A stretch of DNA of 20,000 nt from an uncultured virus (IMG/VR IMGVR_UViG_3300021599_001487) (taxonomy: Duplodnaviria > Heunggongvirae > Uroviricota > Caudoviricetes), in IMG/VR virus record IMGVR_UViG_3300021599_001487; one strand, given 5' to 3'. This document shows positions 1 to 17,283 of this stretch, one piece after another. A model generated the notes under the pieces. The model made no database searches. It was not told the DNA's origin and saw only the letters and a program-made list of their open reading frames with translations. The translations under genes were made by a program, and so were the position numbers. Every line of letters begins with the position of its first letter. Position 1 is the first letter of the stretch.

Positions 1-88
1 TGGCGTTGGCTAGCGCGCGTACGGTGCAGTCGTTGCGCTCGCGCTCGGACGATTGGCCGCTGCATGCGGGCAGGATGTAGTGAATCAT
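1..88 (-). CDS. 5' part of a small phage protein (MIHYILPACSGQSSERERNDCTVRALANA...), runs off the window
   Basis: ATG at 88-86 follows the repeated ACAACAGGAG RBS leader and the frame is open to base 1. The NDCTVRALA motif resembles a common phage hypothetical family (recalled, not searched). Confidence 0.75.
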   Translation of the reverse strand, partial: MIHYILPACSGQSSERERNDCTVRALANA

Positions 89-103
89 GGTGTGCTCCTG
101 TTG

Positions 104-150
104 TGAAAGTGTACTGGCCGGGGAATTGAACCCCGGCCGCTGCACTCTCA
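104..150 (-). ncRNA. Intergenic internal-loop hairpin, copy A1 (possible RNA processing site)
   Basis: Minus strand UGAGAGUG-CAGC-GGCCGGGG-UUCAAUU-CCCCGGCC-AGUA-CACUUUCA. It lies between a stop codon and the next RBS and is repeated at 546-589. Confidence 0.65.
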
Positions 151-354
151 TGCCTCCCGGCGGGATAGCATAATGTCGCGAATGCTTTCGCGATCGACTG
201 AGTCGCCGCACCACTCCAGGCTTGCGTCGGGGCGGGACGTCAGCTTGATGGCGATTGCCTCGAGTATTTCCTGTCTTGTGGCGCTCAAGTCGTACAGGCC
301 CCCGGGCCCGTAGAACTCCAGCACGTAATCTACAAATTGCAGTGTGTCCGGCAT
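148..354 (-). CDS. Hypothetical phage protein, 68 aa
   Basis: ORF with the AGGAG RBS leader. FVDYVLEFYGPGGLY and GDSVDRE motifs look protein-like. Confidence 0.8.
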   Translation of the reverse strand: MPDTLQFVDYVLEFYGPGGLYDLSATRQEILEAIAIKLTSRPDASLEWCGDSVDRESIRDIMLSRREA

Positions 355-379
355 GGTGTTGCTCCTGTTGTGGTTGGTG

Positions 380-406
380 TCTTACTGGTTTTTCGTGGGT
401 ACTTTT
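380..406 (-). repeat. 27-bp exact direct repeat, copy C1 (putative early promoter)
   Basis: tcttactggtttttcgtgggtactttt is identical to 1954-1980. Both copies lie just upstream of an RBS leader. Confidence 0.7.
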
Positions 407-528
407 ACCTGCCAAACGAAAAACGTGCCACAAAAAACTAGGCGCGCGTACTCGATCGCCTCTCGTTTGGTCCTAAACTTTGGGCCTGTCGTTGTCTTGG
501 TGTTGGTCCCTGCCAGCCAGTATGCCAT
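382..528 (-). CDS. Hypothetical protein, 48 aa (MAYWLAGTNT...)
   Basis: ATG at 528 lies downstream of ACAACAGGAG. The ORF-track start at 585 falls inside the hairpin repeat. Confidence 0.6.
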   Translation of the reverse strand: MAYWLAGTNTKTTTGPKFRTKREAIEYARLVFCGTFFVWQVKVPTKNQ

Positions 529-545
529 GGTGATTCTCCTGTTGT

Positions 546-589
546 GAAAGTGTACTGGACAGCCCCGTAGGGCTGGCCGCTGCACTCTC
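546..589 (-). ncRNA. Intergenic internal-loop hairpin, copy A2
   Basis: GAGAGUG-CAGC-GGCCAGCCC-UACG-GGGCUGUCC-AGUA-CACUUUC. The base and internal loop match A1, but the apical stem differs and is capped by a C(UACG)G tetraloop. Confidence 0.65.
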
Positions 590-591
590 GA

Positions 592-1199
592 TTACGCCAC
601 GAGTTTGATCGGGATCACGCGATCGACGACGAAGCCCGAGACGTCGCGCTTGGCCTTGCCCTTGGCGTAGAGGGCCACGACGACTCCCTGCGGGTGTGCC
701 ACGGTCACGGAATACCACGGCCACGCGCATGCCGGCGCTGATGGCGCGCTTCGCGTACTCCGGGAAGGCACCGACGCCGGACCACGAGAACGTCAGGTCA
801 TAATTGGCCGGGATGTCGCGGCGGTTGGCGATCTTGGTGTAGTCGTAGAACTGCACGCCGGGGAAGCGATCAAAAATGGTGCGCCCGTCGTCTGTCTTGA
901 TCGTCTCCCAGCGGATGTCTGTCGTGCCGTTCAGGCGCACGAGCGGGGTCATGCCCTTGCGTTTGGCGCTGCGGACCAGCCGCTCGATGTCGGCCACGAG
1001 CACGCGCATGAACGCGGCGCGCTGCTCGATAAAAAACCGGGCCTTGGACAGTCGTGCGCGCTGGACGTTGGACATGGCGCCACGGCCGGCGCTGTTCAGG
1101 CAGGCCGCCTTGCACCCGGCCATGTCGGCCATGGGGCAGAGGTTGACGCCGGAGAGGTCCGCCGGGGCCATGTACAGAATGCCTGTCATGAACCCGTAT
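592..1199 (-). pseudogene. Gp88-family phage protein (Cys-cluster), apparently disrupted: start lost and frameshift near 694-700
   Basis: The main frame carries ILYMAP...NLCPMA...GCKAACL...GRG, VRLNGTTDIRWE, QFYDYTK, NYDLTFS and VAVVF. The family-like C-terminus PQGVVVALYAKGKAKRDVSGFVVD..* is in another frame, ending at TAA 594-592. An out-of-frame ATA sits where the other cassettes have ATG. Confidence 0.7.
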
Positions 1200-1221
1200 G
1201 GTGTGCTCCTGTTGTGGTTAT

Positions 1222-1273
1222 GCATCAGACCATCTCGCGATGGTTTCGGCCAATCAGGCCTCGTCAGTGATGC
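1222..1273 (-). ncRNA. Type I hammerhead ribozyme, copy 1
   Basis: GCAUCA-CUGACGA-GGCC(UGAUU)GGCC-GAAA-CCAUC(GCGA)GAUGG-UC^UGAUGC. The CUGANGA/GAAA core is complete, all three stems pair, and the GUC cleavage site is at 1228|1227. Confidence 0.95.
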
Positions 1274-1477
1274 TCAGTCGTTCCAAAATTCTACCGTGGG
1301 CTCGCCGCGCAGCACGCCCAGCACTGATATGCCGTCGCTGTCGTCCCAGCCCCAGTCCTCGGCGCACTGCTCTTTGCCCTTCTCTGCCGCCTCGTATGGG
1401 TCTGCTGCCTGTACGTGATCAATCCATGTGGTGCCAAAGCTGCCGGCCTCTCTGCAGAATACTGTGTACGTTGCCAT
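1274..1477 (-). CDS. Hypothetical acidic protein, 67 aa (MATYTVFCREAG...), flanked by two hammerheads
   Basis: ATG at 1477 follows ACAACAGGAG. The TGA abuts hammerhead 1. Confidence 0.8.
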   Translation of the reverse strand: MATYTVFCREAGSFGTTWIDHVQAADPYEAAEKGKEQCAEDWGWDDSDGISVLGVLRGEPTVEFWND

Positions 1478-1500
1478 GGTGTTGCTCCTGTTGTGGTTAT

Positions 1501-1552
1501 GCATCAGACCCGCCGCAGCGGGTTTCGGCCAATCAGGCCTCGTCAGTGATGC
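1501..1552 (-). ncRNA. Type I hammerhead ribozyme, copy 2
   Basis: GCAUCA-CUGACGA-GGCC(UGAUU)GGCC-GAAA-CCCGC(UGCG)GCGGG-UC^UGAUGC. Stem III co-varies with copy 1. Cleavage site at 1507|1506. Confidence 0.95.
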
Positions 1553-1560
1553 TGGCGCTG

Positions 1561-1695
1561 TTATACGCAGTAGCCCTCGCCGCGCAAAAATTTCGCAAGG
1601 GTTTCCGGTTCGATGTCCACCTCGTCGCAGAGGATGTCGAGGGGACAGCCTTTGTCCCATAGCTCGATGATTCGTGCCTGAATGATGCTGGTCAT
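1561..1695 (-). CDS. Small protein, 44 aa, possible helix-turn-helix (MTSIIQARIIELWDKGCPLDILCDEVDIEPETLAKFLRGEGYCV)
   Basis: Translated by hand. It has an ATGA overlap with the stop of the upstream ORF and an HTH-like residue pattern. It is below the ORF-track length cutoff. Confidence 0.65.
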   Translation of the reverse strand: MTSIIQARIIELWDKGCPLDILCDEVDIEPETLAKFLRGEGYCV

Positions 1696-1919
1696 TCTAC
1701 TTCAGAGACGCCCACGCCGTTGGCGCGAAGCCATGCCAAACACGGCGCCGGCACTTCGTACATGCCCTCATAGTCGAAGGCCTGTTTGGTGGCCGGGTCC
1801 ACGTCCACCCGGACGGCGCGCTCGTCGCCGAATTGCTCGTGCTCGAAGTAGTAGCCCTCGCCGTCGTCGCACTGGTAGACGGTGTACTTTCCTGCCATTC
1901 CAAGACTGTCTCTGCTCAT
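1692..1919 (-). CDS. Hypothetical protein, 75 aa, first gene of the leftward array
   Basis: ORF with an AACAGGAG RBS just upstream of the ATG. Confidence 0.75.
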   Translation of the reverse strand: MSRDSLGMAGKYTVYQCDDGEGYYFEHEQFGDERAVRVDVDPATKQAFDYEGMYEVPAPCLAWLRANGVGVSEVE

Positions 1920-1953
1920 GTCGTGCTCCTGTTGGTTGTGGTTGGTGTTTCCA

Positions 1954-1980
1954 TCTTACTGGTTTTTCGTGGGTACTTTT
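1954..1980 (-). promoter_or_regulatory. 27-bp repeat, copy C2 (putative early promoter, TAAGAT -10-like)
   Basis: Identical to 380-406 and located at the head of the leftward gene array. Confidence 0.55.
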
Positions 1981-2166
1981 GGGGCGCGGGCCGCTCTCTG
2001 ATGGCCGATCAATGCGCTACCCCAGCGCCGAGGCCTCGCACGCGCGTTTTTAGCCCCGCTGGCGGGCTGGCGCGCTGCCGGGTACCCCTGCCCTTGGCTG
2101 GCTGTGGATATCCCCGTGGTGGCCGTTTTCCTGCATGGTGAAATGCTGGCGCCCGCCCCGCCACTT

Positions 2167-2224
2167 TGGCACGATACTTGCTAGGGCAAGATGCGTGCCT
2201 GCGCAACATGGCACGATTCTTGCA
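2167..2224. promoter_or_regulatory. Cluster of three sigma54 (-24/-12)-like sites
   Basis: TGGCAC-GATAC-TTGCT (+, 2167-2182), AGGCAC-GCATC-TTGC (-, 2200-2186) and TGGCAC-GATTC-TTGCA (+, 2209-2224) match the TGGCAC-N5-TTGC consensus. Confidence 0.65.
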
Positions 2225-2231
2225 TGCCGGC

Positions 2232-2437
2232 ATGTTAGTGAGCGCACACTGACATATTGCGCGGCACCAAATAGGTTAGTGTGCGCACACTGGGGGTGCT
2301 GCGGTGCGGCATATAGGTTAGTGAGCGCTCGCTGGGGCTGGTGCGTTGCGACATTGCTGCGCTGCACAATGTTAGTGGGCGCTTACTAACATGGTGCGGT
2401 GCAACATCGGCAGGGCGGGCTTTTGCTGCGGTGCGTC
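2232..2437. repeat. Four imperfect palindromic GTTAGTGnGCGC repeats interleaved with TGC-rich motifs
   Basis: Copies at 2232-2255, 2275-2291, 2317-2333 and 2369-2392. Confidence 0.75.
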
Positions 2438-2555
2438 ACCCCTTTAGGGTCCTGTCCGGACAGGCCGGGGCGGGGCCCACACAAATCGCTAGCCCGGCAA
2501 TTTTTGCCGTATTTTTTGCTGTACGTGTAGAAGTATAGAGAAATGCATGAAACCT

Positions 2556-2576
2556 AAATGAGAATCGTTCTCATTT
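2556..2576. promoter_or_regulatory. Fur-box-like palindrome 1
   Basis: AAATGAGAATCGTTCTCATTT resembles the 7-1-7 Fur box TGATAATnATTATCA. Confidence 0.55.
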
Positions 2577-2649
2577 GCCGCGGGTAGCGCAGGTTGCCGC
2601 AGGTACGAGCAAGGATCTTTTTCTCTATACCGAAATTTTGCGTCAGAGC

Positions 2650-2662
2650 TAAGTCATTGATT
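2650..2662 (-). promoter_or_regulatory. IHF consensus site 1
   Basis: AATCAATGACTTA matches WATCAANNNNTTR. An identical copy is at 2844-2856. Confidence 0.55.
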
Positions 2663-2673
2663 TTATTAGGGCC

Positions 2674-2696
2674 CAAATGAGAATTATTCTCATTTG
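2674..2696. promoter_or_regulatory. Fur-box-like palindrome 2
   Basis: Perfect 11-1-11 palindrome CAAATGAGAAT-T-ATTCTCATTTG. Confidence 0.6.
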
Positions 2697-2815
2697 CCGC
2701 AGGTAGCGCAGGTAGCGCAGGTCTATGTAGACTTGATTAGCTTTTTTAAAAAATAAAAAATAAAATATCTGTATGGACCTGGAATTGACCCGCGCTACCC
2801 GCGCTACCTGCGGCA
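2695..2815. repeat. 29-bp inverted repeat of GGTAGCGCR units flanking an AT-rich core (origin-like or packaging-signal-like)
   Basis: 2695-2723 matches the reverse complement of 2787-2815 with two mismatches, and A/T runs lie between them. A related direct copy is at ~2576-2605. Confidence 0.65.
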
Positions 2816-2843
2816 TTTGACACTCTGCCTTAAGAAACAGCGC

Positions 2844-2856
2844 TAAGTCATTGATT
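2844..2856 (-). promoter_or_regulatory. IHF consensus site 2
   Basis: AATCAATGACTTA. Confidence 0.55.
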
Positions 2857-2866
2857 GTTCGTGGAG

Positions 2867-2896
2867 GGGCCTTATTTTTGTGGAAGGTGCATAAGT
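2867..2896 (+). promoter_or_regulatory. Putative late promoter RGGC-N17-TGCATAAGT, copy 1
   Basis: The motif recurs upstream of genes at 5519, 9857 and 13807. Confidence 0.55.
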
Positions 2897-2905
2897 GGTA
2901 TAGAG

Positions 2906-3130
2906 ATGAAACGAAAAAACCCAGACACCGGCGACGTGTTCCACCGGGGCGATACGCGCCTGGATGGGTACGTGTTCTTCGCCTACACCAAGAGGCGGAG
3001 ATCGGACGGACACTTCGTCGAGATATGGCTGCACCCCCTGGCATCGGAGAGGGCCACCGTAAACGACCGGCAAAGAAAGCGGCAAAAGGCACATGGCGAT
3101 ACCGTCAGACACGCCACTACCGACGCCTAG
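2906..3130 (+). CDS. Small basic hypothetical protein, 74 aa (MKRKNPDTGDVFHRGD...), possibly nucleic-acid binding
   Basis: ATG at 2906 follows the late motif. The protein is Arg/Lys-rich and overlaps the next gene. Confidence 0.6.
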   Translation: MKRKNPDTGDVFHRGDTRLDGYVFFAYTKRRRSDGHFVEIWLHPLASERATVNDRQRKRQKAHGDTVRHATTDA

Positions 3131-4067
3131 CGGGTGGGTGCTGGCCTCAGACCTTCGACCTGGAGACGTCCTGTTCAACCCCCGCGGCGGTACCCAGGCC
3201 GTTGGCTCTGTCCAGAGCTACATACCAACCGAGTGCTACCGGGTGCACATGTCGGACGGTACCAGCATCGTCGGCGACCGACACGCGGGCATGATGCTGC
3301 AGGACCAGCGGTGGCGCGAGAGGCAGCAGTCCTGGTTCAACAACCAGGGCAACAAGTTTGCACAGAAAAGATTTCGCCGCCCGCTAAAGAGGCAGACCTT
3401 CCTGGATCTTTACAAGGGACCGCTTTTGGACGCGAGGGGCCGCAAGAACTGGTCCCTGCAGGCCGTGAGCCCCCTGCAGTACCCGCAGGTCGACCTGCCG
3501 GTGCCTCCATACGTCGTGGGCCTGTGGCTGGCGACGGTCACCCCAACCAACCGCCACTGGCTACTGAACCGAGACTACAACCAGATGCAGAGACGGGTGC
3601 GAGAGGTGGGGTTCAGCCTGGCAAGAAAGAAGAAGGGCAAGTGGATGTTCTCCTTTAGGCCCGGCGTAAGGGAGTCGTTTATACACTCCGGGGCCCCGGT
3701 GCCGGACGTGATACCGCAATCATACCTTGAGAGCGACGTAGACAGCCGACAGGCGCTGCTGGACGGGCTATTTGACGCAAAAAGCATCAAAAAAGCGGAA
3801 AGCTCACGCGATGGTCTGGTGATACACGACAACTGGCGCTCAATACGGCGCAAGCAGCAGCTCCTGGAGGGCCTTGGGTACGTCACGAGGCTGCTACAGA
3901 ACGGAAAGAACACCTTTTTCTCGCTCTACTTTACGAAAATGTATGACAATGTCGCTAAGTGCAGACGTTTTGTTACAAAAGTTGAAAAAATTGTCCCAAA
4001 ACAGTGCGTACACATCGCCACAGACGGGGAGTTTGTCGCGGGAGAGGGATTTTTAGGTATATGCTGA
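3093..4067 (+). CDS. Free-standing degenerate intein-like (Hint plus LAGLIDADG-like) protein
   Basis: Intein block A/B-like AIPSDTPLPTPSGW...GD...YRVHMSDGTSIVGDRH. Endonuclease-like PYVVGLWL and IPQSYL...RQALLDGLFD. Block F-like FVTKVEKI...CVHI...FVAGEGF. There is no terminal His-Asn and there are no exteins. Confidence 0.8.
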   Translation: MAIPSDTPLPTPSGWVLASDLRPGDVLFNPRGGTQAVGSVQSYIPTECYRVHMSDGTSIVGDRHAGMMLQDQRWRERQQSWFNNQGNKFAQKRFRRPLKRQTFLDLYKGPLLDARGRKNWSLQAVSPLQYPQVDLPVPPYVVGLWLATVTPTNRHWLLNRDYNQMQRRVREVGFSLARKKKGKWMFSFRPGVRESFIHSGAPVPDVIPQSYLESDVDSRQALLDGLFDAKSIKKAESSRDGLVIHDNWRSIRRKQQLLEGLGYVTRLLQNGKNTFFSLYFTKMYDNVAKCRRFVTKVEKIVPKQCVHIATDGEFVAGEGFLGIC

Positions 4068-5497
4068 CCAAAAAACAGGAAACGGTACTCGCAAACTTCG
4101 CAAAAAACAACAAGCACTGGCCAAAGGCGCAGCTAGAGGCCGCGCTGTGGCAGGTCAGGTGGGAGCTGGAGGCGTTGGCGCACCAACGAGAGCCAGAGGA
4201 CGGCGAGTACGACACGTTTCTGATGCTGGCAGGGCGAGGGTCGGGCAAGACGCACACCGCGAGCCACTGGATTGGGATACGGGCATGGAAATACGCCGGC
4301 ACGAGGTGGCTCGTCACGGCACCGACGTCGAACGACATACGCGCGACGTGCTTTGAGGGTGACTCGGGCCTGATGAACATCATACCGTCTTCGCTGATAC
4401 AGGACTACAACAAATCGCTCTTTGAGATCACGCTAACCAACGGCTCGATCATACAGGGCATACCCGGCTCAGAGCCAGAGCGCTACCGGGGCAAGCAGTA
4501 CCACGGGGCCTGGTTCGACGAGCTGTGCGCGTTTGAGTACATCGACGACGCATACGACCAGGTACAGTTCACGCTGCGACTGAGGCACCCAGACATCGCG
4601 CGGGTGCAGCAGATCATCACCACCACCCCAAAACCTAAAGAGCTCATCGTAGACCTCAACGATGGCAAGGTCGGCGGGGACGTGTACGTCGTAAACGCCA
4701 GCTCCTACGACAACCGACAAAACCTCTCGGCGACGTTTTTCAAGCAGCTCGAGACGTACGAGGGCACCGACCTCGGCAAGCAGGAGATCTACGGCGAGAT
4801 CCTGGACCCAGAAGATGCCGGTATCGTAAAACGGAAGTGGTTCAGGATGTGGCCCTCCAAGAAGGAGACGCCTACCCTGGAGTATGTCATCGCAAGCTAC
4901 GACCCGGCCACGAGCGAGAAGACGCACAACGACCCAACGGCCTGCACGGTGTGGGGCGTCTTCGAGCAACAGGACGCGGGCACGTCGCTCATACTGCTAG
5001 ACGCGTGGGACGGTCACCTGGCCTACCCAGAGCTGCGCAAAAAAGTAATCAACGACTTCAAGGAGGTGGTGTACGGGGCGGACAACACGTTTGCCAAGGG
5101 CAGGAAGGCCGACCTGATACTGATGGAGGACAAATCGGCCGGTATATCCCTGATACAAGAGCTTCAGATGGCCGGCGTCCCGGTCCGGGCCTACAACCCA
5201 GGCCGCGCGGACAAGGTACAGCGCGTCAACATCGTGGCGCCCCTGATCGCCAAGGGCAAGGTGTTTGTGCCGGAGGATGCCAAGAAGGACGGGGAGTACG
5301 CCGAGTGGACCAAGAGATTTATGCGCCAGGTCTGTGCCTTCCCGGAATCTGGCGGCCACGACGACTACGTCGACAGCCTGTCGCAGGCGCTGCGCGTACT
5401 GCGAGACTCTGGGTGGGTACAGCTAGACCCCCTGCCGCCGCGGGACTACTCCTACGCCGACGACAAAAAGACCCGAGCCAACCCATACGCGCAGTGA
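4061..5497 (+). CDS. terL: Terminase large subunit
   Basis: Walker A AGRGSGKT, Walker B AWFDE, coupling motif ITTTP, and nuclease motifs YDPA and HDDYVDSLSQA. The likely start is ATG 4061, overlapping the upstream stop. Confidence 0.95.
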   Translation: MLTKKQETVLANFAKNNKHWPKAQLEAALWQVRWELEALAHQREPEDGEYDTFLMLAGRGSGKTHTASHWIGIRAWKYAGTRWLVTAPTSNDIRATCFEGDSGLMNIIPSSLIQDYNKSLFEITLTNGSIIQGIPGSEPERYRGKQYHGAWFDELCAFEYIDDAYDQVQFTLRLRHPDIARVQQIITTTPKPKELIVDLNDGKVGGDVYVVNASSYDNRQNLSATFFKQLETYEGTDLGKQEIYGEILDPEDAGIVKRKWFRMWPSKKETPTLEYVIASYDPATSEKTHNDPTACTVWGVFEQQDAGTSLILLDAWDGHLAYPELRKKVINDFKEVVYGADNTFAKGRKADLILMEDKSAGISLIQELQMAGVPVRAYNPGRADKVQRVNIVAPLIAKGKVFVPEDAKKDGEYAEWTKRFMRQVCAFPESGGHDDYVDSLSQALRVLRDSGWVQLDPLPPRDYSYADDKKTRANPYAQ

Positions 5498-5527
5498 GGC
5501 ACTTTCCTTTGCTTTTTGTGCATAAGT
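5497..5527 (+). promoter_or_regulatory. Putative late promoter, copy 2
   Basis: AGGC-N18-TGCATAAGT. Confidence 0.5.
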
Positions 5528-5553
5528 TGGGTTAGGGAGATAACCACACAAAC

Positions 5554-6903
5554 ATGAACCCAATCAAGTCACCGCGAGAGATGCTGTTCGAGATGGCGGG
5601 CATTCCATCCTTTTCCAAGGGCAAGGCCGTGGGAGAGTTTGGCGCAGACATGTACAAGCTCATCACCGGCGCCATCGAGAAGTACACCAAAAAGTTTGGG
5701 CGCCCTCCCAGCCCGGAGGACGTAGCCGCGCTTAAGGAGCACGCCAGGAGCATCTCGGCAAAGAGCGAGATCAAGACAGACCCCGTGACGCAGGCACGCG
5801 CACGCCACCAGCTCGCGACCGACCCAGGCCTTATCAACCCAGAGGGCCCGGACCCGTTCCTATCAAAGGCAATGACCGGCCGCACCGTCAAGGGCACCTA
5901 CATCAAACCAAAACCGCAGGACATCAACGACCCGAACGTACAGGCCAACATCGAGAAGAAGCAAGTATCTGGCGAGCTCGAGGAGGTCATGCCCGAGTCA
6001 ATCACGCCAAGCGCGGACTACATGGCACGCACAAGCTCGGCGATGGAGAACCAGGCACTCGCCGCGGGCAAGACACCGCTGATTGACATGCTAAAGGCCG
6101 CGTTCTTTAAAAAGAACAACCGCTACCCCACCGACGAGGAGCTTGAGGTAATCATCGCCGAGTACAACCCGCTGCGCCACCAGTACGGCGAGAGGGGCGC
6201 CTCGATCGTGACAGACAGGCCACCATCATCTCGCGGGATGCAGGACTGGAGGCAGCGGGCAAGGTCGGAGGGGATACCCGAGGCATTTCTCAACAAGCCG
6301 CCCGCGGACTACCCCAAGTATTTGCAGGACGAGCTGGCCATCGGCCGCGGCGAGCAGCCCGGCATGCGGCCCATGCCCACGACTCGCATCAACCCCGACA
6401 GGTCATACGCAGACGGAAGATCCGTGCCGGCCATGAGCCCAAGCGAGATGCGGGCCATGATGACTGCCTACGGCAAGACGCCCAGCAAGTTTATGCCGGA
6501 GACGCGACTAGAAAAAATTGCTCGCGGCGCAAGTTTGCCGTTTGCGGCAATGTCGGCACAGATGGCCGGACAAAAACTTGCCGAGGGCAACCCATACGAG
6601 GCCGCACTGCTCGGCACGTCTGCGCTTGGCAGCGGCATGGCGTCGACTCGCAAGTACATGAAGCCGGGCCTTGGGATTGCAGGCGGTGCCGCGGTGCCTC
6701 TCTCAATTGAGGACGCAATGCGACGCTACAACAAGGGCGACAGAACTGGCGCCGTAATATCTGCCATTGAGGCCGCCGGCAACGCGGCCGCGATGTTCCC
6801 GCCCACCGCGGTCCCTGGGTCCCTGGTAAGCATGGGCGCGGGTATTGCCAACGCCATACGAGGCGAACCAGAAACTATGTCCGTAATGGAAGATTACAAA
6901 TAA
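5554..6903 (+). CDS. Hypothetical 449-aa protein, possibly an internal virion or ejected protein
   Basis: Long ORF with a GGAG RBS between terL and portal. The C-terminus has Gly/Ala-rich hydrophobic helices. Confidence 0.7.
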   Translation: MNPIKSPREMLFEMAGIPSFSKGKAVGEFGADMYKLITGAIEKYTKKFGRPPSPEDVAALKEHARSISAKSEIKTDPVTQARARHQLATDPGLINPEGPDPFLSKAMTGRTVKGTYIKPKPQDINDPNVQANIEKKQVSGELEEVMPESITPSADYMARTSSAMENQALAAGKTPLIDMLKAAFFKKNNRYPTDEELEVIIAEYNPLRHQYGERGASIVTDRPPSSRGMQDWRQRARSEGIPEAFLNKPPADYPKYLQDELAIGRGEQPGMRPMPTTRINPDRSYADGRSVPAMSPSEMRAMMTAYGKTPSKFMPETRLEKIARGASLPFAAMSAQMAGQKLAEGNPYEAALLGTSALGSGMASTRKYMKPGLGIAGGAAVPLSIEDAMRRYNKGDRTGAVISAIEAAGNAAAMFPPTAVPGSLVSMGAGIANAIRGEPETMSVMEDYK

Positions 6904-9596
6904 TGCCACCACAGCTTCCCAAGATGCCAATCCAGCAGGGCGCAAACCTTGCATCGCTAGACCTCGAGTCAAACGAGACCTTCGAGGAGAAGGAGGAGGT
7001 CATCGAGCTAGACGATGGCTCGGTCGTCATCAACTACAGACCCAAAGAGGGCCCGCTCAAGAACCCAGAGTTTTACGAGAACCTGGCCGAGAGCTTAGAC
7101 GAGGGCGTGCTGTCTAATTTATCGACGGAATACTCAGAGTACATCGAGGTCGACCGCGAGGCGAGAAAAGAAAGAGACAAGCAGTATGAAGAAGGACTAC
7201 GAAGGACAGGACTTGGAAAGGACGCGCCAGGTGGCGCAACTTTTGACGGAGCTTCCAAGGTTGTTCACCCTGTCATGGCAGAGGCTTGCGTCGACTTTGC
7301 GGCGTCTAGCTCGCGCGAGCTTTTGCCGCCAGAGGGGATTGTAAAATCTGAGATCAAGGGCGAGGCGGACCGTCAACGTGTTGAAACAGCAGACAGAAAG
7401 GCAAACTTCCTTAACTGGCAGCTCACCGAGCAAATCGAGGAGTACCGAGATGAGATGGAGCAGACCCTCACCCAGCTGCCTCTTGGTGGGTCGCAATACT
7501 TTAAGTGGCGCTGGGACAGCGAACAGAAACGGCCCTGCTGCGAGTGGATCCCCATCGACAACATCTTCCTCCCCTACGCAACGACAAATTTCTATACTTC
7601 TCCGCGAGTAACCGAGCAGCAGGACATCACGGAGGACACCTTCCTGCAGCGCGTAGACCAGGGCATCTACCGCGACATTGGCCAGATTGTAAGCTCAGAG
7701 ATCGAGCTGGACAAGCAGACACAGTCCGAAAAAGCCAACGACAAGATCGAGGGCAAGCAGATCCCGACCAAGAACATCGACGGCGTACGGCGCGTGTACG
7801 AGATCACGTGCTTCTTGCGCCTCAAGGACGACCCGTACACAGACGGCGCACGGGCGCCATACATCTTAACGATTGATGAGAGCACGGACAAGGTCCTCTC
7901 GCTGTACCGTAACTGGGAGTCTGGCGATGAGAAGCTTACGAAGCTGGATTGGATCGTGGAGTACAAGTTTATCCCGTGGCGTGGCGCTTACGCTATCGGC
8001 CTACCTCATCTTATTGGTGGTCTATCTGCTGCCCTCACTGGCTCGCTTCGCGCGCTTTTGGACGCGGCTCACATCAACAACAGCCAGACCATGCTCAAGC
8101 TCAAGGGAGGAAGAATCTCCGGACAGAGCGACAGGATTGAACCGACGCAGGTTCTAGAGATCGAAGGTGCCCCCGGCGTGGACGACGTCCGCAAGTTGGC
8201 TATGCCGTTGCCGTTTAACCCCCCATCTAGCGTATTGTACAACCTCCTTGGTTGGCTGACCGATGCCGCAAAGGGTGTGGTCACGACGGCCGAGGAGAAG
8301 ATTGGCGACGCAAACGCTAACACACCGGTGGGCACCACCCAGGCACTCATCGAGCAGGGCGCGAAGGTATTCTCCAGCATCCACGCACGGCTGCACCGAT
8401 CCCAGGCCAAGTCGTTAAAGATCCTCTCCAGGATCAACCACTGGTACCTGGAGGAGATGGACAACGAGTCTGGCACCGAGATCGAGGTCCGTGACTTTGC
8501 GTCCAACAACGACATCCGTCCGGTATCGGACCCCAACATTTTCTCTGAGACGCAGCGTCTTGCGCAGGCACAGGCAGTTCTGCAGATGGCAAACGCCGCG
8601 CCTCAGTTGTACGACCTTCGGGCTGCGCACCGGAGGGTTCTGAAGCAGCTGAAAGTTCCTGCAATTAGTGAGATATTGCCAGATCCGGATGGTATCAAGG
8701 AGGCAAATCCTGCCCTGGAGAACGTAGCAATGTCCATGGGCCGCCCCGCGGCTGCCTACCCGGACCAGGACCACTTGGCGCACATCAAGGTTCACCTGAC
8801 GTATGCACAGGACCCCAACTACGGTGGCAGCCCACTCATTGGGCCCACGTTCGCACCGCACGCGCTTGAGCACATCAAGCAGCACCTGACGCTGCACTAC
8901 CTGCAGTCGATGCGTGCATACGTAGCGGAGGCAACTGGGGGCCAGGACACGCTGGGGCTGCACGAGGAGAAGCCTCTCAAGCTGGAGGACCAGCAGGCGC
9001 TGTCTCTCGCGGCCGAGATGGTCTCGATGGACGCACAGGCCACGTTCCAGTCCGCGCAGCCACAGATCCAGCAGCTGGCTCAAAAGGTCCAGGAGGCACA
9101 AAAGGCCAAGCTGGAGCAGATGGCGGCCAACGACCCAACGGCCCAGGCACTGCTCAAGACACAGATGGCCGAGACCCAGCGCAAGTCGCAGGAGTCGCAG
9201 GCACGCCTGCAGCAGGAGATGGCCAAGCACCAGCAAGACTACCAGCTCAAGGTGGCCGAGCTGGAGCAGAAGGTGCAGGAGCTCATCGCCAAGTACCAGA
9301 CACAGAGCCAGATCGACAGCCAGAAAAACGCTACCAACATCGCCACGGCAAACATCAACAACGCATCGCGCGAGCGCGTCGCGGCCATGCAGGCAGGCGC
9401 ACAGATGGACGCGCTGCAGGCACAGCTGGCGCAGGAGCAGGCCATGTCGGCCATCGAGGCCATCAACACCGCCGACGAGGACATCCGGCAGCACGGGATC
9501 GCCATCGAGCAGGCGGCGTTTAACCAGCAGGCGCAGGCGGTGCAGCAGGCCATCGACGCGCAGCAACCACCACAACCACCACAAGGAGCAGTTTAA
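6903..9596 (+). CDS. Portal protein (P22-like podovirus type) with a Gln-rich coiled-coil C-terminus
   Basis: Size 897 aa, position after terL, and motifs HPVMAEACVDF, IPWRGAYAIGLPHLIGGL and VGTTQALIEQG. Confidence 0.88.
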   Translation: MPPQLPKMPIQQGANLASLDLESNETFEEKEEVIELDDGSVVINYRPKEGPLKNPEFYENLAESLDEGVLSNLSTEYSEYIEVDREARKERDKQYEEGLRRTGLGKDAPGGATFDGASKVVHPVMAEACVDFAASSSRELLPPEGIVKSEIKGEADRQRVETADRKANFLNWQLTEQIEEYRDEMEQTLTQLPLGGSQYFKWRWDSEQKRPCCEWIPIDNIFLPYATTNFYTSPRVTEQQDITEDTFLQRVDQGIYRDIGQIVSSEIELDKQTQSEKANDKIEGKQIPTKNIDGVRRVYEITCFLRLKDDPYTDGARAPYILTIDESTDKVLSLYRNWESGDEKLTKLDWIVEYKFIPWRGAYAIGLPHLIGGLSAALTGSLRALLDAAHINNSQTMLKLKGGRISGQSDRIEPTQVLEIEGAPGVDDVRKLAMPLPFNPPSSVLYNLLGWLTDAAKGVVTTAEEKIGDANANTPVGTTQALIEQGAKVFSSIHARLHRSQAKSLKILSRINHWYLEEMDNESGTEIEVRDFASNNDIRPVSDPNIFSETQRLAQAQAVLQMANAAPQLYDLRAAHRRVLKQLKVPAISEILPDPDGIKEANPALENVAMSMGRPAAAYPDQDHLAHIKVHLTYAQDPNYGGSPLIGPTFAPHALEHIKQHLTLHYLQSMRAYVAEATGGQDTLGLHEEKPLKLEDQQALSLAAEMVSMDAQATFQSAQPQIQQLAQKVQEAQKAKLEQMAANDPTAQALLKTQMAETQRKSQESQARLQQEMAKHQQDYQLKVAELEQKVQELIAKYQTQSQIDSQKNATNIATANINNASRERVAAMQAGAQMDALQAQLAQEQAMSAIEAINTADEDIRQHGIAIEQAAFNQQAQAVQQAIDAQQPPQPPQGAV

Positions 9597-12828: not shown

Positions 12829-13746
12829 ATGGCAGCCCCAATGCGTAGTACGGACTTTCGTGCGGTAGTCGAGCCGATTATCAACGAAGTCTTTGACGGT
12901 GTTTACGATCAACGTGATGATGAGTGGAAAGGGTTTGTGACCCAGATCCAGGGTATCCCCCGCAATTATCACGAAGAAGTCATGCTGTTCGGTATGAACG
13001 CAGCGCCCGCAATGCCAGACGGAACCCCGGTTTCGTATGACCAAGGCGGTACGCTGTACATCACCCGATTCATTTATCAGATCTATGGCCTGGCATACGC
13101 CCTGACCAAGGTACTGATGGAAGACGGCGATCATATCCGCATCGGCAGCACCTTCGCCAAGCACCTGGCTCAGTCGATGATTGAGACCAAGGAGACCCTG
13201 TGCGCCAACCTGCTGAACTTCGCGTTCACCGGTGGATACACCGGCGGTGACGGCGTGACGTTGAACAACAACGCACACCCCGTCGCTAACGGCTTGACCT
13301 ACAGCAACGTCTTGGCAACCCCCGCCAACCTGTCCCAGACATCGGTTGAGCAGATGCTCATCCAGATCCGCGGCGCTATTGACAACAATGGCAAGCGTAT
13401 CCGTCTGAAGGCAGAGCAGCTGATTGTTCCGCCGGCTCTCGAGTTTCAGGCTGAGGTTATCCTCAAGTCTGTCCTCCGCTCCGGTACGGCCGACAACGAT
13501 CTGAACCCGATCAAGTCGACTGGTATGCTCCCGAAGGGCGCCCACGTGGTGACCCGTCTGAGCTCTACCAAGGCATGGTGGGTACAGACCGACGCCGAGA
13601 ACGGTCTGATGCTGGTAATGCGTCGCCCCATGGAGAAATCTATGGAAGGCGATTTTGAGACCGACTCCATGCGCTACAAGGCTACGGAGCGTTACGCCAC
13701 TGGCTGGCACGACGCACGTAACATCTACGGCACGCCTGGCGTCTAA
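12829..13746 (+). CDS. Major capsid protein (Mu gpT-like, HK97 fold)
   Basis: 305 aa with motifs LIVPPALE and GDFETDSMRYKATERY. It has a strong RBS and is followed by a terminator. Confidence 0.88.
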   Translation: MAAPMRSTDFRAVVEPIINEVFDGVYDQRDDEWKGFVTQIQGIPRNYHEEVMLFGMNAAPAMPDGTPVSYDQGGTLYITRFIYQIYGLAYALTKVLMEDGDHIRIGSTFAKHLAQSMIETKETLCANLLNFAFTGGYTGGDGVTLNNNAHPVANGLTYSNVLATPANLSQTSVEQMLIQIRGAIDNNGKRIRLKAEQLIVPPALEFQAEVILKSVLRSGTADNDLNPIKSTGMLPKGAHVVTRLSSTKAWWVQTDAENGLMLVMRRPMEKSMEGDFETDSMRYKATERYATGWHDARNIYGTPGV

Positions 13747-15981: not shown

Positions 15982-17283
15982 ATGGCCGATCGTTCCATAA
16001 CCCAACTGCCAGTATCAAACCCGCTGTCTGGTACCGAGGTCACCGTCATCGTACAGAACGGCATCTCAAAGCAGACGCAGCTGTCAGACATTGCCGCCCT
16101 TGGCGGCGCCGTTGGTCCAACCGGGCCGGTCGGCCCCGCGGGACCCACCGGACCCGTTGGCGGTCCAGGACCCACCGGGCCACTCGGGCCTACCGGGCCG
16201 CTTGGGCCCACGGGCCCAACTGGTCCCACCGGACCCACGGGGGACCCATCCACCGTGCCCGGACCTACCGGAGACACCGGCCCCACGGGACCATCGGGGC
16301 CCCTTGGACCGCCCGGGCCCATTGGGCCTACGGGACCCACCGGACCCACGGGGGACCCATCCACCGTGCCCGGACCCACCGGACCCACCGGAGACACAGG
16401 ACCCACCGGACCCACGGGGGACCCATCCACCGTGCCCGGACCCACCGGACCCACCGGCCCACAGGGGGACTCCACGACGTTCTTCCCGTACAAGACAAAG
16501 ACCACGTCGCTAAGCGGGGACCCTGGCCATACGTACCTTCTTTGGAACGACGCGACGCAAATAAACGCGACGCAGGTAAACGTCAGCCACATCGACAAGG
16601 ACAACGTCGACGTTGACATATTTTTGGCGCTGCTACAGCAGGGCCAGAAGTTTACGATACAGGACGCGACGGTAAGCGCCAACTACCAGACCTGGCTCAT
16701 AAGCGGGCCGCCGGTGAACGTGAACCCGGGGCTATCGACCAGCTACTGGGAGTACCCCGTGACGCTGGTCTCATCGGGCGGCACCGGCACGACCAACTTC
16801 CCCAACGACCACAACGTCATCTTTGCCGTCGTGTCCGGCATCGTCGGGCCCACGGGACCCACCGGAGACCCTTCGACAGTTCCAGGCCCCACGGGACCCA
16901 CCGGCGACACCGGCCCCACGGGACCCAGCGTCACGGGGCCCACGGGACCAAACTACGGCTCCCGCGTCGTGGCCGTCGCAGACGCGACGTCCATCACAAT
17001 GGACGCCGACACGACCGACATGGCGACGCAGGCAAACACCCAGGCCGCCGGCACCTTGACCATCAACGCCCCCACCGGAACGCCAACAAACGGACAGAAG
17101 ATAATGCTAAGGCTGACGTCTACCAACGTTCAGACCTTCTCATGGAACGCCATATTCCAGGGGTCGACGCAGCTGCCGCTGCCTACGGTATCATCCGGGT
17201 CATCCCGGGTAGACTACCTGGGCTTTATCTACAACTCAACCGCCACCAAGTGGCAGATCATTACACGAATCTTTGGGTTCTAA
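15982..17283 (+). CDS. Collagen-like (Gly-Pro-Thr) repeat fibre protein
   Basis: Two G-X-Y repeat tracts separated and followed by globular domains. Confidence 0.88.
16114..16468 (+). repeat. Coding tandem repeats (GPT triplets and GDPSTVP units)
   Basis: ggacccacgggggacccatccaccgtgcccggacc occurs three times, with a diverged copy near 16855. Confidence 0.85.

What the first reader, a model, noticed from the sequence alone, without database searches (positions are those of the whole stretch)
1222..1552. Tandem type I hammerhead ribozymes bracket a single phage gene and could release a circularisable 279-nt mRNA
Seen in sequence: two complete hammerheads on the coding strand with identical stems I and II and fully compensatory stem III (CCAUC/GAUGG versus CCCGC/GCGGG, with GNRA versus UNCG loops), which indicates selection on structure. 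Each sits after a stop codon and cuts about 13-16 nt before the next RBS. Cleavage at 1507|1506 and 1228|1227 would free a 279-nt RNA carrying the RBS and the 67-aa ORF. Established knowledge: hammerhead products have 5'-OH and 2',3'-cyclic phosphate ends, and tandem hammerheads yield circles in retrozymes and satellite RNAs. Inference: because stem I is identical, the two ends of the fragment can re-form a full hammerhead and be self-ligated or RtcB-ligated into a circular mRNA. At minimum the ribozymes would cut the early polycistron into monocistronic 5'-OH RNAs without host enzymes.
Basis: partly seen in the sequence, partly recalled or inferred. Interest (0 to 1): 0.93.

Follow-up and report, generated by a model that had tools for sequence, protein, structure and literature searches.

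The report
Twin hammerhead ribozymes in phage operon
Two genuine self-cutting hammerhead RNA motifs flank one small gene in the early operon of a freshwater phage, most likely chopping a long message into single-gene pieces, an arrangement already described for phages in 2011.

Summary
Two complete type I hammerheads lie on the minus strand at 1552-1501 and 1273-1222. They would cut at 1507|1506 and 1228|1227 and bracket a 67-aa ORF (1477-1274) in a 279-nt unit. Both fold as three-way junctions. No complete hammerhead appears in 300 shuffles of the window.

They belong to a large family in viral contigs. Of 60 contexts matching only core plus stem II, 56 are complete hammerheads. Stems I and III covary strongly.

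The window is a phage with terminase, portal, capsid and tail fibre genes. The ribozymes sit between a stop codon and the next ribosome-binding site in a small-gene operon.

Best reading: co-transcriptional self-cleavage into single-gene mRNAs. The circle is geometrically possible but unsupported:
- 9 of 27 neighbouring hammerhead pairs in relatives cannot re-form stem I.
- The circle has no stop-free frame.
- Perreault et al. 2011 already proposed and looked for circles without success.
- Read-level evidence could not be obtained.

This scan has noted tandem hammerheads before on other DNA. Verdict: new member of a known kind, modest interest.

The parts
1501..1552 (-). Upstream type I hammerhead (HH-up). 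Stem I 1552-1547/1506-1501, core CUGACGA 1546-1540, stem II 1539-1536/1530-1527, GAA 1526-1524, stem III 1523-1518/1513-1508 with UGCG loop, C17 at 1507. Predicted cut 1507|1506.
   Evidence: Sequence. Minimum-free-energy fold is the three-way junction. Own covariance model 77 bits (training member). Rfam RAGATH-1-hammerhead 19.8 bits, E 0.69, below gathering.
1222..1273 (-). Downstream type I hammerhead (HH-down). Stem I 1273-1268/1227-1222, core 1267-1261, stem II 1260-1257/1251-1248, stem III 1244-1239/1234-1229 with GCGA loop, C17 at 1228. Predicted cut 1228|1227.
   Evidence: Own model 79.2 bits (training member). Rfam RAGATH-1-hammerhead 18.6 bits, E 1.2.
1274..1477 (-). 67-aa ORF bracketed by the two ribozymes. 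Shine-Dalgarno AGGAG 1489-1485, ATG 1477-1475, TGA 1276-1274. Function unknown.
   Evidence: ORF list. Weak PHROG hit phrog_29605, E 1.4e-5, unknown function. 44% identical homologue in a related contig, L007/L008.
1228..1506 (-). 279-nt RNA that double cleavage would release: 29-nt leader, ORF, and the 3'-terminal hammerhead body.
   Evidence: Coordinates. Fold re-forms stem I between the two ends. No stop-free circular frame.
1561..1919 (-). Upstream cistrons orf75 (1919-1692) and orf44 (1695-1561). They overlap by ATGA and have no intercistronic element between them.
   Evidence: orf75 homologues at 79% identity in related contigs.
592..1210 (-). Cistron after HH-down, a GP88-family gene (PF17338), with its SD at 1210-1206. 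It is damaged in this assembly. AUA (1199-1197) stands where the SD-led AUG is expected. About 37 N-terminal residues are missing. An internal gap of about 24 aa with a frame change lies near 700.
   Evidence: Pfam and PHROG hits. tblastn of an intact homologue. A near-identical metagenome contig, L301, has about 60 extra bases at the internal site.
546..589 (-). Intercistronic hairpin C, copy 1. Lower stem GAGAGUG/CACUUUC, internal loop CAGC/AGUA, variable upper stem. It lies between a stop codon and the next RBS, the same slot that the hammerheads occupy.
   Evidence: Only 4 distinct instances were found in all collections.
105..149 (-). Intercistronic hairpin C, copy 2.
1954..1980 (-). Motif B, copy 1 (AAAAGUACCCACGAAAAACCAGUAAGA), at the head of the minus-strand operon, about 35 nt before the orf75 start.
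   Evidence: About 30 near-identical instances, several per contig, lie ahead of ribosome-binding sites in related viral contigs.
380..406 (-). Motif B, copy 2, ahead of orf68 (354-148).

Best explanation
The two elements are active type I hammerhead ribozymes built into the intercistronic spacers of a phage small-gene (probably early) operon transcribed from the minus strand.

Each ribozyme folds as it is transcribed and cuts after its GUC. This separates the upstream cistron from the next one. The upstream RNA then ends in the compact ribozyme body with a 2',3'-cyclic phosphate. The next RNA begins with a 5'-OH, a 29-nt leader and an AGGAG ribosome-binding site.

The result is single-gene mRNAs made without a host nuclease. 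Their stability and translation are uncoupled from their neighbours.

Shown here:
- the motif and its fold
- its statistical rarity
- its covariation
- its fixed position between stop codon and RBS
- its recurrence in tandem in related phages

Inferred: cleavage itself, and its effect on mRNA fate.
For: All defining core nucleotides and the three helices are present in both copies. The minimum-free-energy fold equals the hammerhead junction. 2 complete motifs are observed against 0 in 300 shuffles.

A viral-contig scan fixed only the core and stem II. It gave 60 unique contexts: 42 complete type I, 14 complete type III, 3 cut by a locus end, and 1 not a hammerhead.

On 40 type I sequences, 99.8% of cells pair and 11 of 16 pairs show changes on both sides. 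0 of 500 shuffles reach this, and slid controls pair at 28-35%.

Stem II also covaries (GGCC/GGCC, GCCC/GGGC, GCUU/AAGC) in hits found through a neighbouring protein gene and not through the pattern.

27 unique neighbouring pairs in related contigs are spaced 238-1143 nt apart. In 15 of these 27 the longest ORF starts 25-28 nt after the cut.

The window is a phage: terminase, portal, capsid, tail fibre.

Perreault et al. 2011 showed that three such tandem prophage arrangements cleave in vitro and one cleaves in vivo in E. coli (passages read).
Against: No cleavage assay and no read-level data.

Rfam 15 reports nothing at gathering score. The best match is 19.8 bits against a 56.3-bit cut-off. 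However, Rfam also reports no hammerhead in 20 related loci that hold 32 type I hammerheads by my scan. This speaks to the thresholds more than to the motif.

Stem I is only 6 bp, and no pseudoknot partner for loop II was seen. Fast cleavage at cellular Mg2+ therefore rests on an unidentified tertiary contact.

The core invariance in my alignments is partly forced by how the sequences were collected.

The gene after HH-down is damaged in this assembly, so the benefit of processing there is unclear.
Confidence: 0.8

Rival explanations
1. Circular mRNA. After both cuts, the 5' end of the 279-nt RNA pairs with the stem I strand of the downstream ribozyme. The nick is then sealed by the reverse hammerhead reaction or by a host RtcB-type ligase. 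The product is a circular, exonuclease-resistant mRNA for the 67-aa protein.
For: Stem I is identical in the two copies. The excised RNA's minimum-free-energy and centroid folds both re-form the nicked hammerhead. 18 of 27 neighbouring pairs in relatives could do the same. RtcB is common in prokaryotes: 10 of 14 control genomes. Type I is the topology that keeps the catalytic body together with the cyclic phosphate end, as noted by Perreault 2011.
Against: 9 of 27 neighbouring pairs cannot re-form stem I (0-2 bp). In one contig the stem I sequences alternate (L013). Circularisation is therefore not a conserved property. Identity may simply reflect recent duplication or sequence constraint on stem I.

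The fold is no more stable than shuffles (z -0.8). No stop-free frame exists on the circle. Perreault 2011 looked for circular or spliced products of tandem prophage hammerheads and found none (data not shown).
Confidence: 0.1
2. Selfish or neutral intergenic cassette. The 71-nt unit (hammerhead plus leader plus RBS) spreads between intergenic sites by recombination. It persists because it is harmless, not because processing helps the phage.
For: The unit is repeated with identical flanks. Stem I, II and III variants are mixed between contigs. The gene slots that carry a hammerhead differ between related phages: the orf67 homologue in L007/L008 has one downstream only. Only 3 of 80 loci chosen by the neighbouring GP88 gene carry any. 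Near-identical contigs differ by loss or gain of whole intergenic modules.
Against: Strict maintenance of pairing by double changes and of the fixed distance to the start codon argue for continued selection on a working ribozyme in a defined place. This reading is also compatible with the best explanation, since a mobile cassette may still cut.
Confidence: 0.08
3. Non-catalytic structured repeat, for example a protein-binding or stabilising hairpin cluster that only resembles a hammerhead.
For: No Rfam hit at gathering score. No activity data.
Against: Every defining core position is canonical in both copies. U16.1 and C17 were not imposed by the search, yet they are present in 40 of 40 aligned relatives. 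0 of 300 shuffles give a complete motif.
Confidence: 0.02

Closest known systems
Clustered hammerheads flanking single genes in prophages (Perreault et al. 2011, PMC3088659; e.g. the Agrobacterium tumefaciens triple arrangement around ardA)
   Same: Several same-strand hammerheads in a phage transcription unit, each between genes. The proposed role is to cut long transcripts into single-gene mRNAs. Circular or spliced products were considered there as well.
   Different: This is a different phage lineage (freshwater metagenomes) and a distinct type I subfamily. That subfamily has a 6-bp stem I (GCA.../...UGC), a 4-bp GGCC stem II with a U-N-A-N-U loop, and a fixed 25-29-nt leader to the start codon. 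In the same operon it shares its slot with two other repeated elements (B and C).
Rfam hammerhead models: clan CL00010 (type I, II, III, HH9, HH10) and RAGATH-1-hammerhead RF03152
   Same: Same catalytic core and three-helix junction. The RAGATH-1-hammerhead model aligns its positions 26-77 to both copies.
   Different: Scores of 18.6-19.8 bits are far below the 56.3-bit cut-off. The 5' part of that model (positions 1-25) has no counterpart. No clan model exceeds 13.1 bits.
RNase III processing hairpins between the early genes of phage T7 (recalled from memory, not from a call)
   Same: Intercistronic cuts turn a polycistronic early phage mRNA into single-gene mRNAs and leave a structured 3' end on the upstream piece.
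   Different: T7 relies on a host protein enzyme and produces 5'-phosphate and 3'-OH ends. Here the RNA cuts itself and produces 5'-OH and cyclic phosphate ends.
Retrozymes and viroid-like circular RNAs with tandem hammerheads (PMC4918200 and PMC7229834 from abstracts in search listings; PMC7761336 from passages)
   Same: Two hammerheads with matching stems excise a unit whose ends can re-form the ribozyme and be ligated.
   Different: Those units are non-coding, replicate or retrotranspose, and are found as abundant circles. Here the unit is an ordinary cistron of a DNA phage, and no circle has been seen.

Membership tests
Hammerhead ribozyme (class) | Core C3 U4 G5 A6 N7 G8 A9, G12 A13 A14, A15.1-U16.1, H17 (the criteria listed by Perreault 2011) | tested here: met
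   CUGACGA, GAA, A-U closing pair and C17 are present in both copies.
Hammerhead ribozyme (class) | Three helices around the core, with standard pairs next to the core (10.1-11.1, 1.1-2.1, 15.1-16.1) | tested here: met
   G-C, U-A and A-U respectively. The minimum-free-energy fold equals the junction for both copies.
Hammerhead ribozyme (class) | Helices supported by covariation in relatives | tested here: met
   Stems I and III: 11 of 12 pairs show changes on both sides, and 0 of 500 shuffles reach this. Stem II covaries in pattern-independent hits.
Hammerhead ribozyme (class) | Reaches an Rfam gathering score | tested here: not met
   0 hits at gathering. The best is 19.8 bits against 56.3. 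The same library reports no hammerhead in 20 related loci that hold 32 type I motifs, so the test is insensitive for this subfamily.
Hammerhead ribozyme (class) | Site-specific self-cleavage | not testable with these tools
   Needs a transcription and cleavage assay or end-specific RNA sequencing.
Hammerhead ribozyme (class) | Tertiary contact between stem I and stem II elements, needed for fast cleavage | tested here: inconclusive
   Loop II U22, A24, U26 and the stem I end with its flanks (A4, G5, A7, U54, C56, A57) are at least 90% conserved. No pairing partner for loop II was found by eye.
Type I topology | Stem I open, stems II and III closed by loops, cleavage at the 3' side of the ribozyme body | tested here: met
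Clustered gene-flanking phage hammerheads (Perreault 2011) | Two or more same-strand hammerheads flanking single genes or short gene blocks in a phage or prophage | tested here: met
   Phage genes in the window. The two copies bracket one 67-aa ORF. 27 neighbouring pairs occur in related contigs.
RAGATH-1-hammerhead RF03152 | Full model match at or above 56.3 bits, including model positions 1-25 | tested here: not met
   Only positions 26-77 align, at 18.6-19.8 bits.
Hammerhead circular RNAs (retrozyme or viroid-like) | A circular RNA species exists | not testable with these tools
Hammerhead circular RNAs (retrozyme or viroid-like) | Neighbouring ribozymes have compatible stems so that the ends re-form the motif | tested here: met
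   Met in the window. Not met in 9 of 27 neighbouring pairs of relatives.

The most novel reading that the evidence does not exclude
In infected cells a measurable share of the excised 279-nt RNA is sealed into a circular, translatable mRNA for the 67-aa early protein. Sealing would be by hammerhead self-ligation or by a host RtcB-type ligase. This would be a natural protein-coding circular mRNA made by tandem ribozymes in a DNA phage.
Probability: 0.08. Interest if true: 0.8.

Novelty: new member of a known kind. Interest (0 to 1): 0.3.

Why it matters
The biological role of the many bacterial and phage hammerheads is still unproven (reviews read in passages). This operon is a compact natural test case. 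One transcript uses hammerheads at two gene junctions. At other junctions it uses two different repeated elements, a conserved hairpin (C) and a conserved 27-nt motif (B).

Comparing RNA ends and half-lives across these junctions would show what self-cleavage achieves that other punctuation does not.

The subfamily is invisible to Rfam at curated thresholds. Phage annotations therefore miss it, and a dedicated model would recover many more.

Tried and rejected
- Rfam at gathering score over the whole window: 0 hits. At E up to 10 over 20 kb, no hammerhead was listed. Only a 421-base scan showed weak hammerhead matches.
- Megablast of window 1-6000 against GenBank phages: no match.
- The window's own assembly is not held. 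The nearest record, G001, has no match to window 1-2600.
There is therefore no evidence for or against cleavage ends or a circle junction.
- Perreault 2011 supplements, searched for the stem II/core string: only two unrelated primer rows. The alignment PDF may not be searchable as text, so I cannot say whether this subfamily is in their Dataset S1.
- Earlier scan notes by sequence and by place: nothing.
- Single-subunit RNA polymerase (PF00940) and RtcB (PF01139) in five partial related virus records: 0 of 5 each. This is uninformative, because the records are 26-56% complete and PF00940 rang in no control genome.
- Close relatives of the 67-aa protein in viral contigs by peptide patterns: only the same phage plus one 15-residue match.
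- Endless reading frame on the putative circle: none. The three frames carry 1, 3 and 3 stops.
- The in-frame AUG inside stem I (1504-1502 and 1225-1223) as a near-leaderless start: rejected as a conserved feature, because the longest ORF starts at that position in only 3 of 27 related fragments.
- Hairpin C as a known ribozyme: no Rfam ribozyme match in a 620-base lax scan. Only 4 distinct instances were found, even after viral and metagenome scans.
- Sigma-70-type promoter for the minus-strand operon: none upstream of 1980.
- Pattern scan of one genome per species: 4 matches (Halomonas, two Vreelandella, Nitrosopumilus), not followed up.

Full report
**What is there.**
On the minus strand the window carries two 52-nt type I hammerhead motifs.

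HH-up spans 1552-1501:
- stem I GCAUCA/UGAUGC
- core CUGACGA
- stem II GGCC/GGCC with loop UGAUU
- GAA
- stem III ACCCGC/GCGGGU with loop UGCG
- C17 at 1507

HH-down spans 1273-1222. It is the same throughout except stem III, which is ACCAUC/GAUGGU with loop GCGA.

The repeat unit is 71 nt (1204-1274 and 1483-1553) at 89% identity. All 8 differences fall in stem III. Two pairs are changed on both sides, and the tetraloop changes from UNCG to GNRA.

Predicted cuts are 1507|1506 and 1228|1227, 279 nt apart. Between them lie AGGAG (1489-1485), an ATG (1477-1475) and a 67-codon ORF that ends in TGA (1276-1274), directly against stem I of HH-down. The cut is 17 nt from AGGAG, not 13-16.

**More than chance.**
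- Each 54-mer has the hammerhead junction as both its minimum-free-energy and its centroid structure. No shuffle of 200 folds as well.
- A scan of my own requires the core, three stems and the NUH site. It finds the 2 motifs in the window and none in 300 dinucleotide-preserving shuffles.
- A core-only pattern is not significant alone.
- Rfam 15 lists nothing at gathering score.
- A lax scan of 421 bases gives RAGATH-1-hammerhead at 19.8 and 18.6 bits (cut-off 56.3), aligned to model positions 26-77 only. Type III scores 13.1 bits.
- Rfam thresholds are insensitive here. In 20 related loci with 32 type I hammerheads by my scan, Rfam reports only one tRNA.

**Relatives.**
A viral-contig scan fixed only CUGACGA, the GGCC stem II and GAAAC. 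It returned 61 loci.

Of 60 unique contexts, 42 are complete type I hammerheads and 14 are complete type III. Three are cut by a locus end, and one is not a hammerhead. Stems I and III and the cleavage triplet were not part of the pattern, so this test is not circular.

I aligned 58 unique type I sequences. For a gap-free structure count I kept 40 of them and dropped 18 with other stem or loop lengths.
- 99.8% of 625 cells pair, against 28-35% when partners are slid.
- 11 of 16 pairs show changes on both sides, and 0 of 500 shuffles reach this.
- Stem II is invariant there by design.

Hits found independently came through 80 loci chosen by the neighbouring GP88 protein. In those, stem II covaries too: GGCC/GGCC, GCCC/GGGC, GCUU/AAGC. 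Only 3 of those 80 loci carry hammerheads (5 copies, all type I, all on the gene strand). The ribozymes therefore mark a narrow lineage, not the gene.

**Context.**
The window is a phage. On the plus strand it has:
- large terminase at 4004-5497
- a portal-like gene at 6903-9596
- a capsid gene at 12829-13746
- a collagen-repeat tail fibre at 15982-17283

Near-identical DNA is present in 18 freshwater or lake DNA runs from 11 studies. It is partly present in two metatranscriptomes.

The hammerheads lie in a divergent minus-strand operon of small genes. In order, the operon reads:
1. motif B (1980-1954)
2. orf75 and orf44, which overlap by ATGA
3. HH-up
4. orf67
5. HH-down
6. a GP88-family gene
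7. hairpin C (589-546)
8. orf47
9. motif B (406-380)
10. orf68
11. hairpin C (149-105)
12. a further gene that runs off the window

Every junction ends in the same leader...ACAACAGGAGCA, followed by an ATG. Three kinds of repeated element therefore occupy the same slot between a stop codon and the next ribosome-binding site.

Related contigs share orf75, orf67, GP88 and orf68, but they place hammerheads at different junctions. In one contig the order is B, HH, HH, HH+B, HH, HH, B, B, B (coordinates).

**How it most likely works.**
Each ribozyme cuts its own transcript after GUC. The upstream cistron keeps the ribozyme body as a structured 3' end with a cyclic phosphate. The downstream cistron starts with 5'-OH and a 29-nt leader. 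This end chemistry is established for the class.

In 15 of 27 neighbouring-pair fragments from relatives, the longest ORF begins 25-28 nt after the cut. That fits a fixed ribozyme-leader-RBS module.

The effect on mRNA stability and on the balance of expression is inferred. The nearest functional parallel is RNase III processing of T7 early mRNA, which I recall from memory.

Perreault et al. 2011 reported the same layout in prophages. They showed cleavage of three tandem arrangements in vitro and of one in E. coli (passages read).

**The circle.**
For:
- Stem I is identical in the two copies.
- The excised 279-nt RNA is predicted to pair its two ends into a nicked hammerhead, although overall it is no more stable than shuffles (z -0.8).

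Against, as a selected function:
- 9 of 27 neighbouring pairs in relatives have stem I strands that cannot pair (0-2 bp).
- In one contig the strands alternate between two incompatible versions.
- The circle has no open-ended frame.
- Perreault et al. explicitly considered circular or spliced products and could not detect them.
- No phage RtcB was seen in five partial related records, but that is uninformative.
- The decisive read-level check could not be run.

I put a biologically meaningful circle at about 0.1.

**Novelty.**
The class, the type I topology in phages and prokaryotes, the gene-flanking tandem layout, the processing hypothesis and the circle hypothesis are all in print.

New here are a well-defined freshwater-phage subfamily that Rfam misses, and its coexistence with two other intercistronic elements of unknown nature.

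This scan has already noted tandem hammerheads on other DNA: 65 notes in at least 62 genomes.

Searches for later work on phage hammerhead circles found reviews and methods but no demonstration.

Noticed in passing
window 546-589 and 105-149, minus strand: Conserved intercistronic hairpin C. Lower stem GAGAGUG/CACUUUC, 4x4 internal loop CAGC/AGUA, and an upper stem that covaries (GGCCGGGG, GGCCAGGG, GGGCAGCG and a mismatched copy). It lies directly after a stop codon and before the RBS, the same slot as the hammerheads. Only 4 distinct instances were found. There is no Rfam ribozyme match. My guess is an RNase III-type processing site. A new self-cleaving motif is not excluded.
   Followed up: partly
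window 1954-1980 and 380-406, minus strand: 27-nt motif B (AAAAGUACCCACGAAAAACCAGUAAGA). It is nearly invariant and occurs up to 6 times per related contig, always 25-45 nt ahead of a start codon. It stands at the head of the operon, where no sigma-70-type promoter is found. In some relatives it directly follows a hammerhead. It is a candidate non-sigma-70 (phage-specific) promoter or protein-binding site.
   Followed up: partly
window 2167-2181 and 2209-2223, plus strand: Two copies, 42 bp apart, of TGGCACGAT(A/T)CTTGC. They fit the recalled sigma-54 -24/-12 consensus (TGGCAC-N5-TTGC) and point towards the structural genes. Repeats containing GTTAGTG lie beside them at 2232-2406.
   Followed up: no
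window 592-1210, minus strand: The GP88-family gene (PF17338) looks damaged in this assembly. The SD-led start is AUA, about 37 N-terminal residues are absent, and an internal stretch of about 24 aa is missing with a frame change near 700. A near-identical metagenome contig (L301) carries about 60 more bases at the internal site, so the lesion is polymorphic or an assembly artefact.
   Followed up: partly
window 2553-2830: Long inverted and direct repeats (GCGGCAAATGAGAA...TTCTCATTT and CTACCTGCGCTACC units) around an AT-rich core, between the two divergent gene blocks. Rfam lists them only as chance microRNA-like hairpins. Possibly an origin or packaging region.
   Followed up: no
window 3093-4067, plus strand: A 324-aa ORF just upstream of the large terminase gene and overlapping its start, in another frame. 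It matches only the intein-bearing part of long terminase PHROG profiles (phrog_15, positions 81-311 of 1330) and has no Pfam hit. Possibly a free-standing Hint/intein-like or homing-endonuclease remnant.
   Followed up: no
L298/L299 compared with window 1-700: A near-identical metagenome variant lacks the segment between the two C hairpins (orf47, motif B, orf68). In its place a B-like motif is joined directly to one C hairpin. This suggests that the repeated intergenic modules mediate gene loss and gain by recombination.
   Followed up: partly
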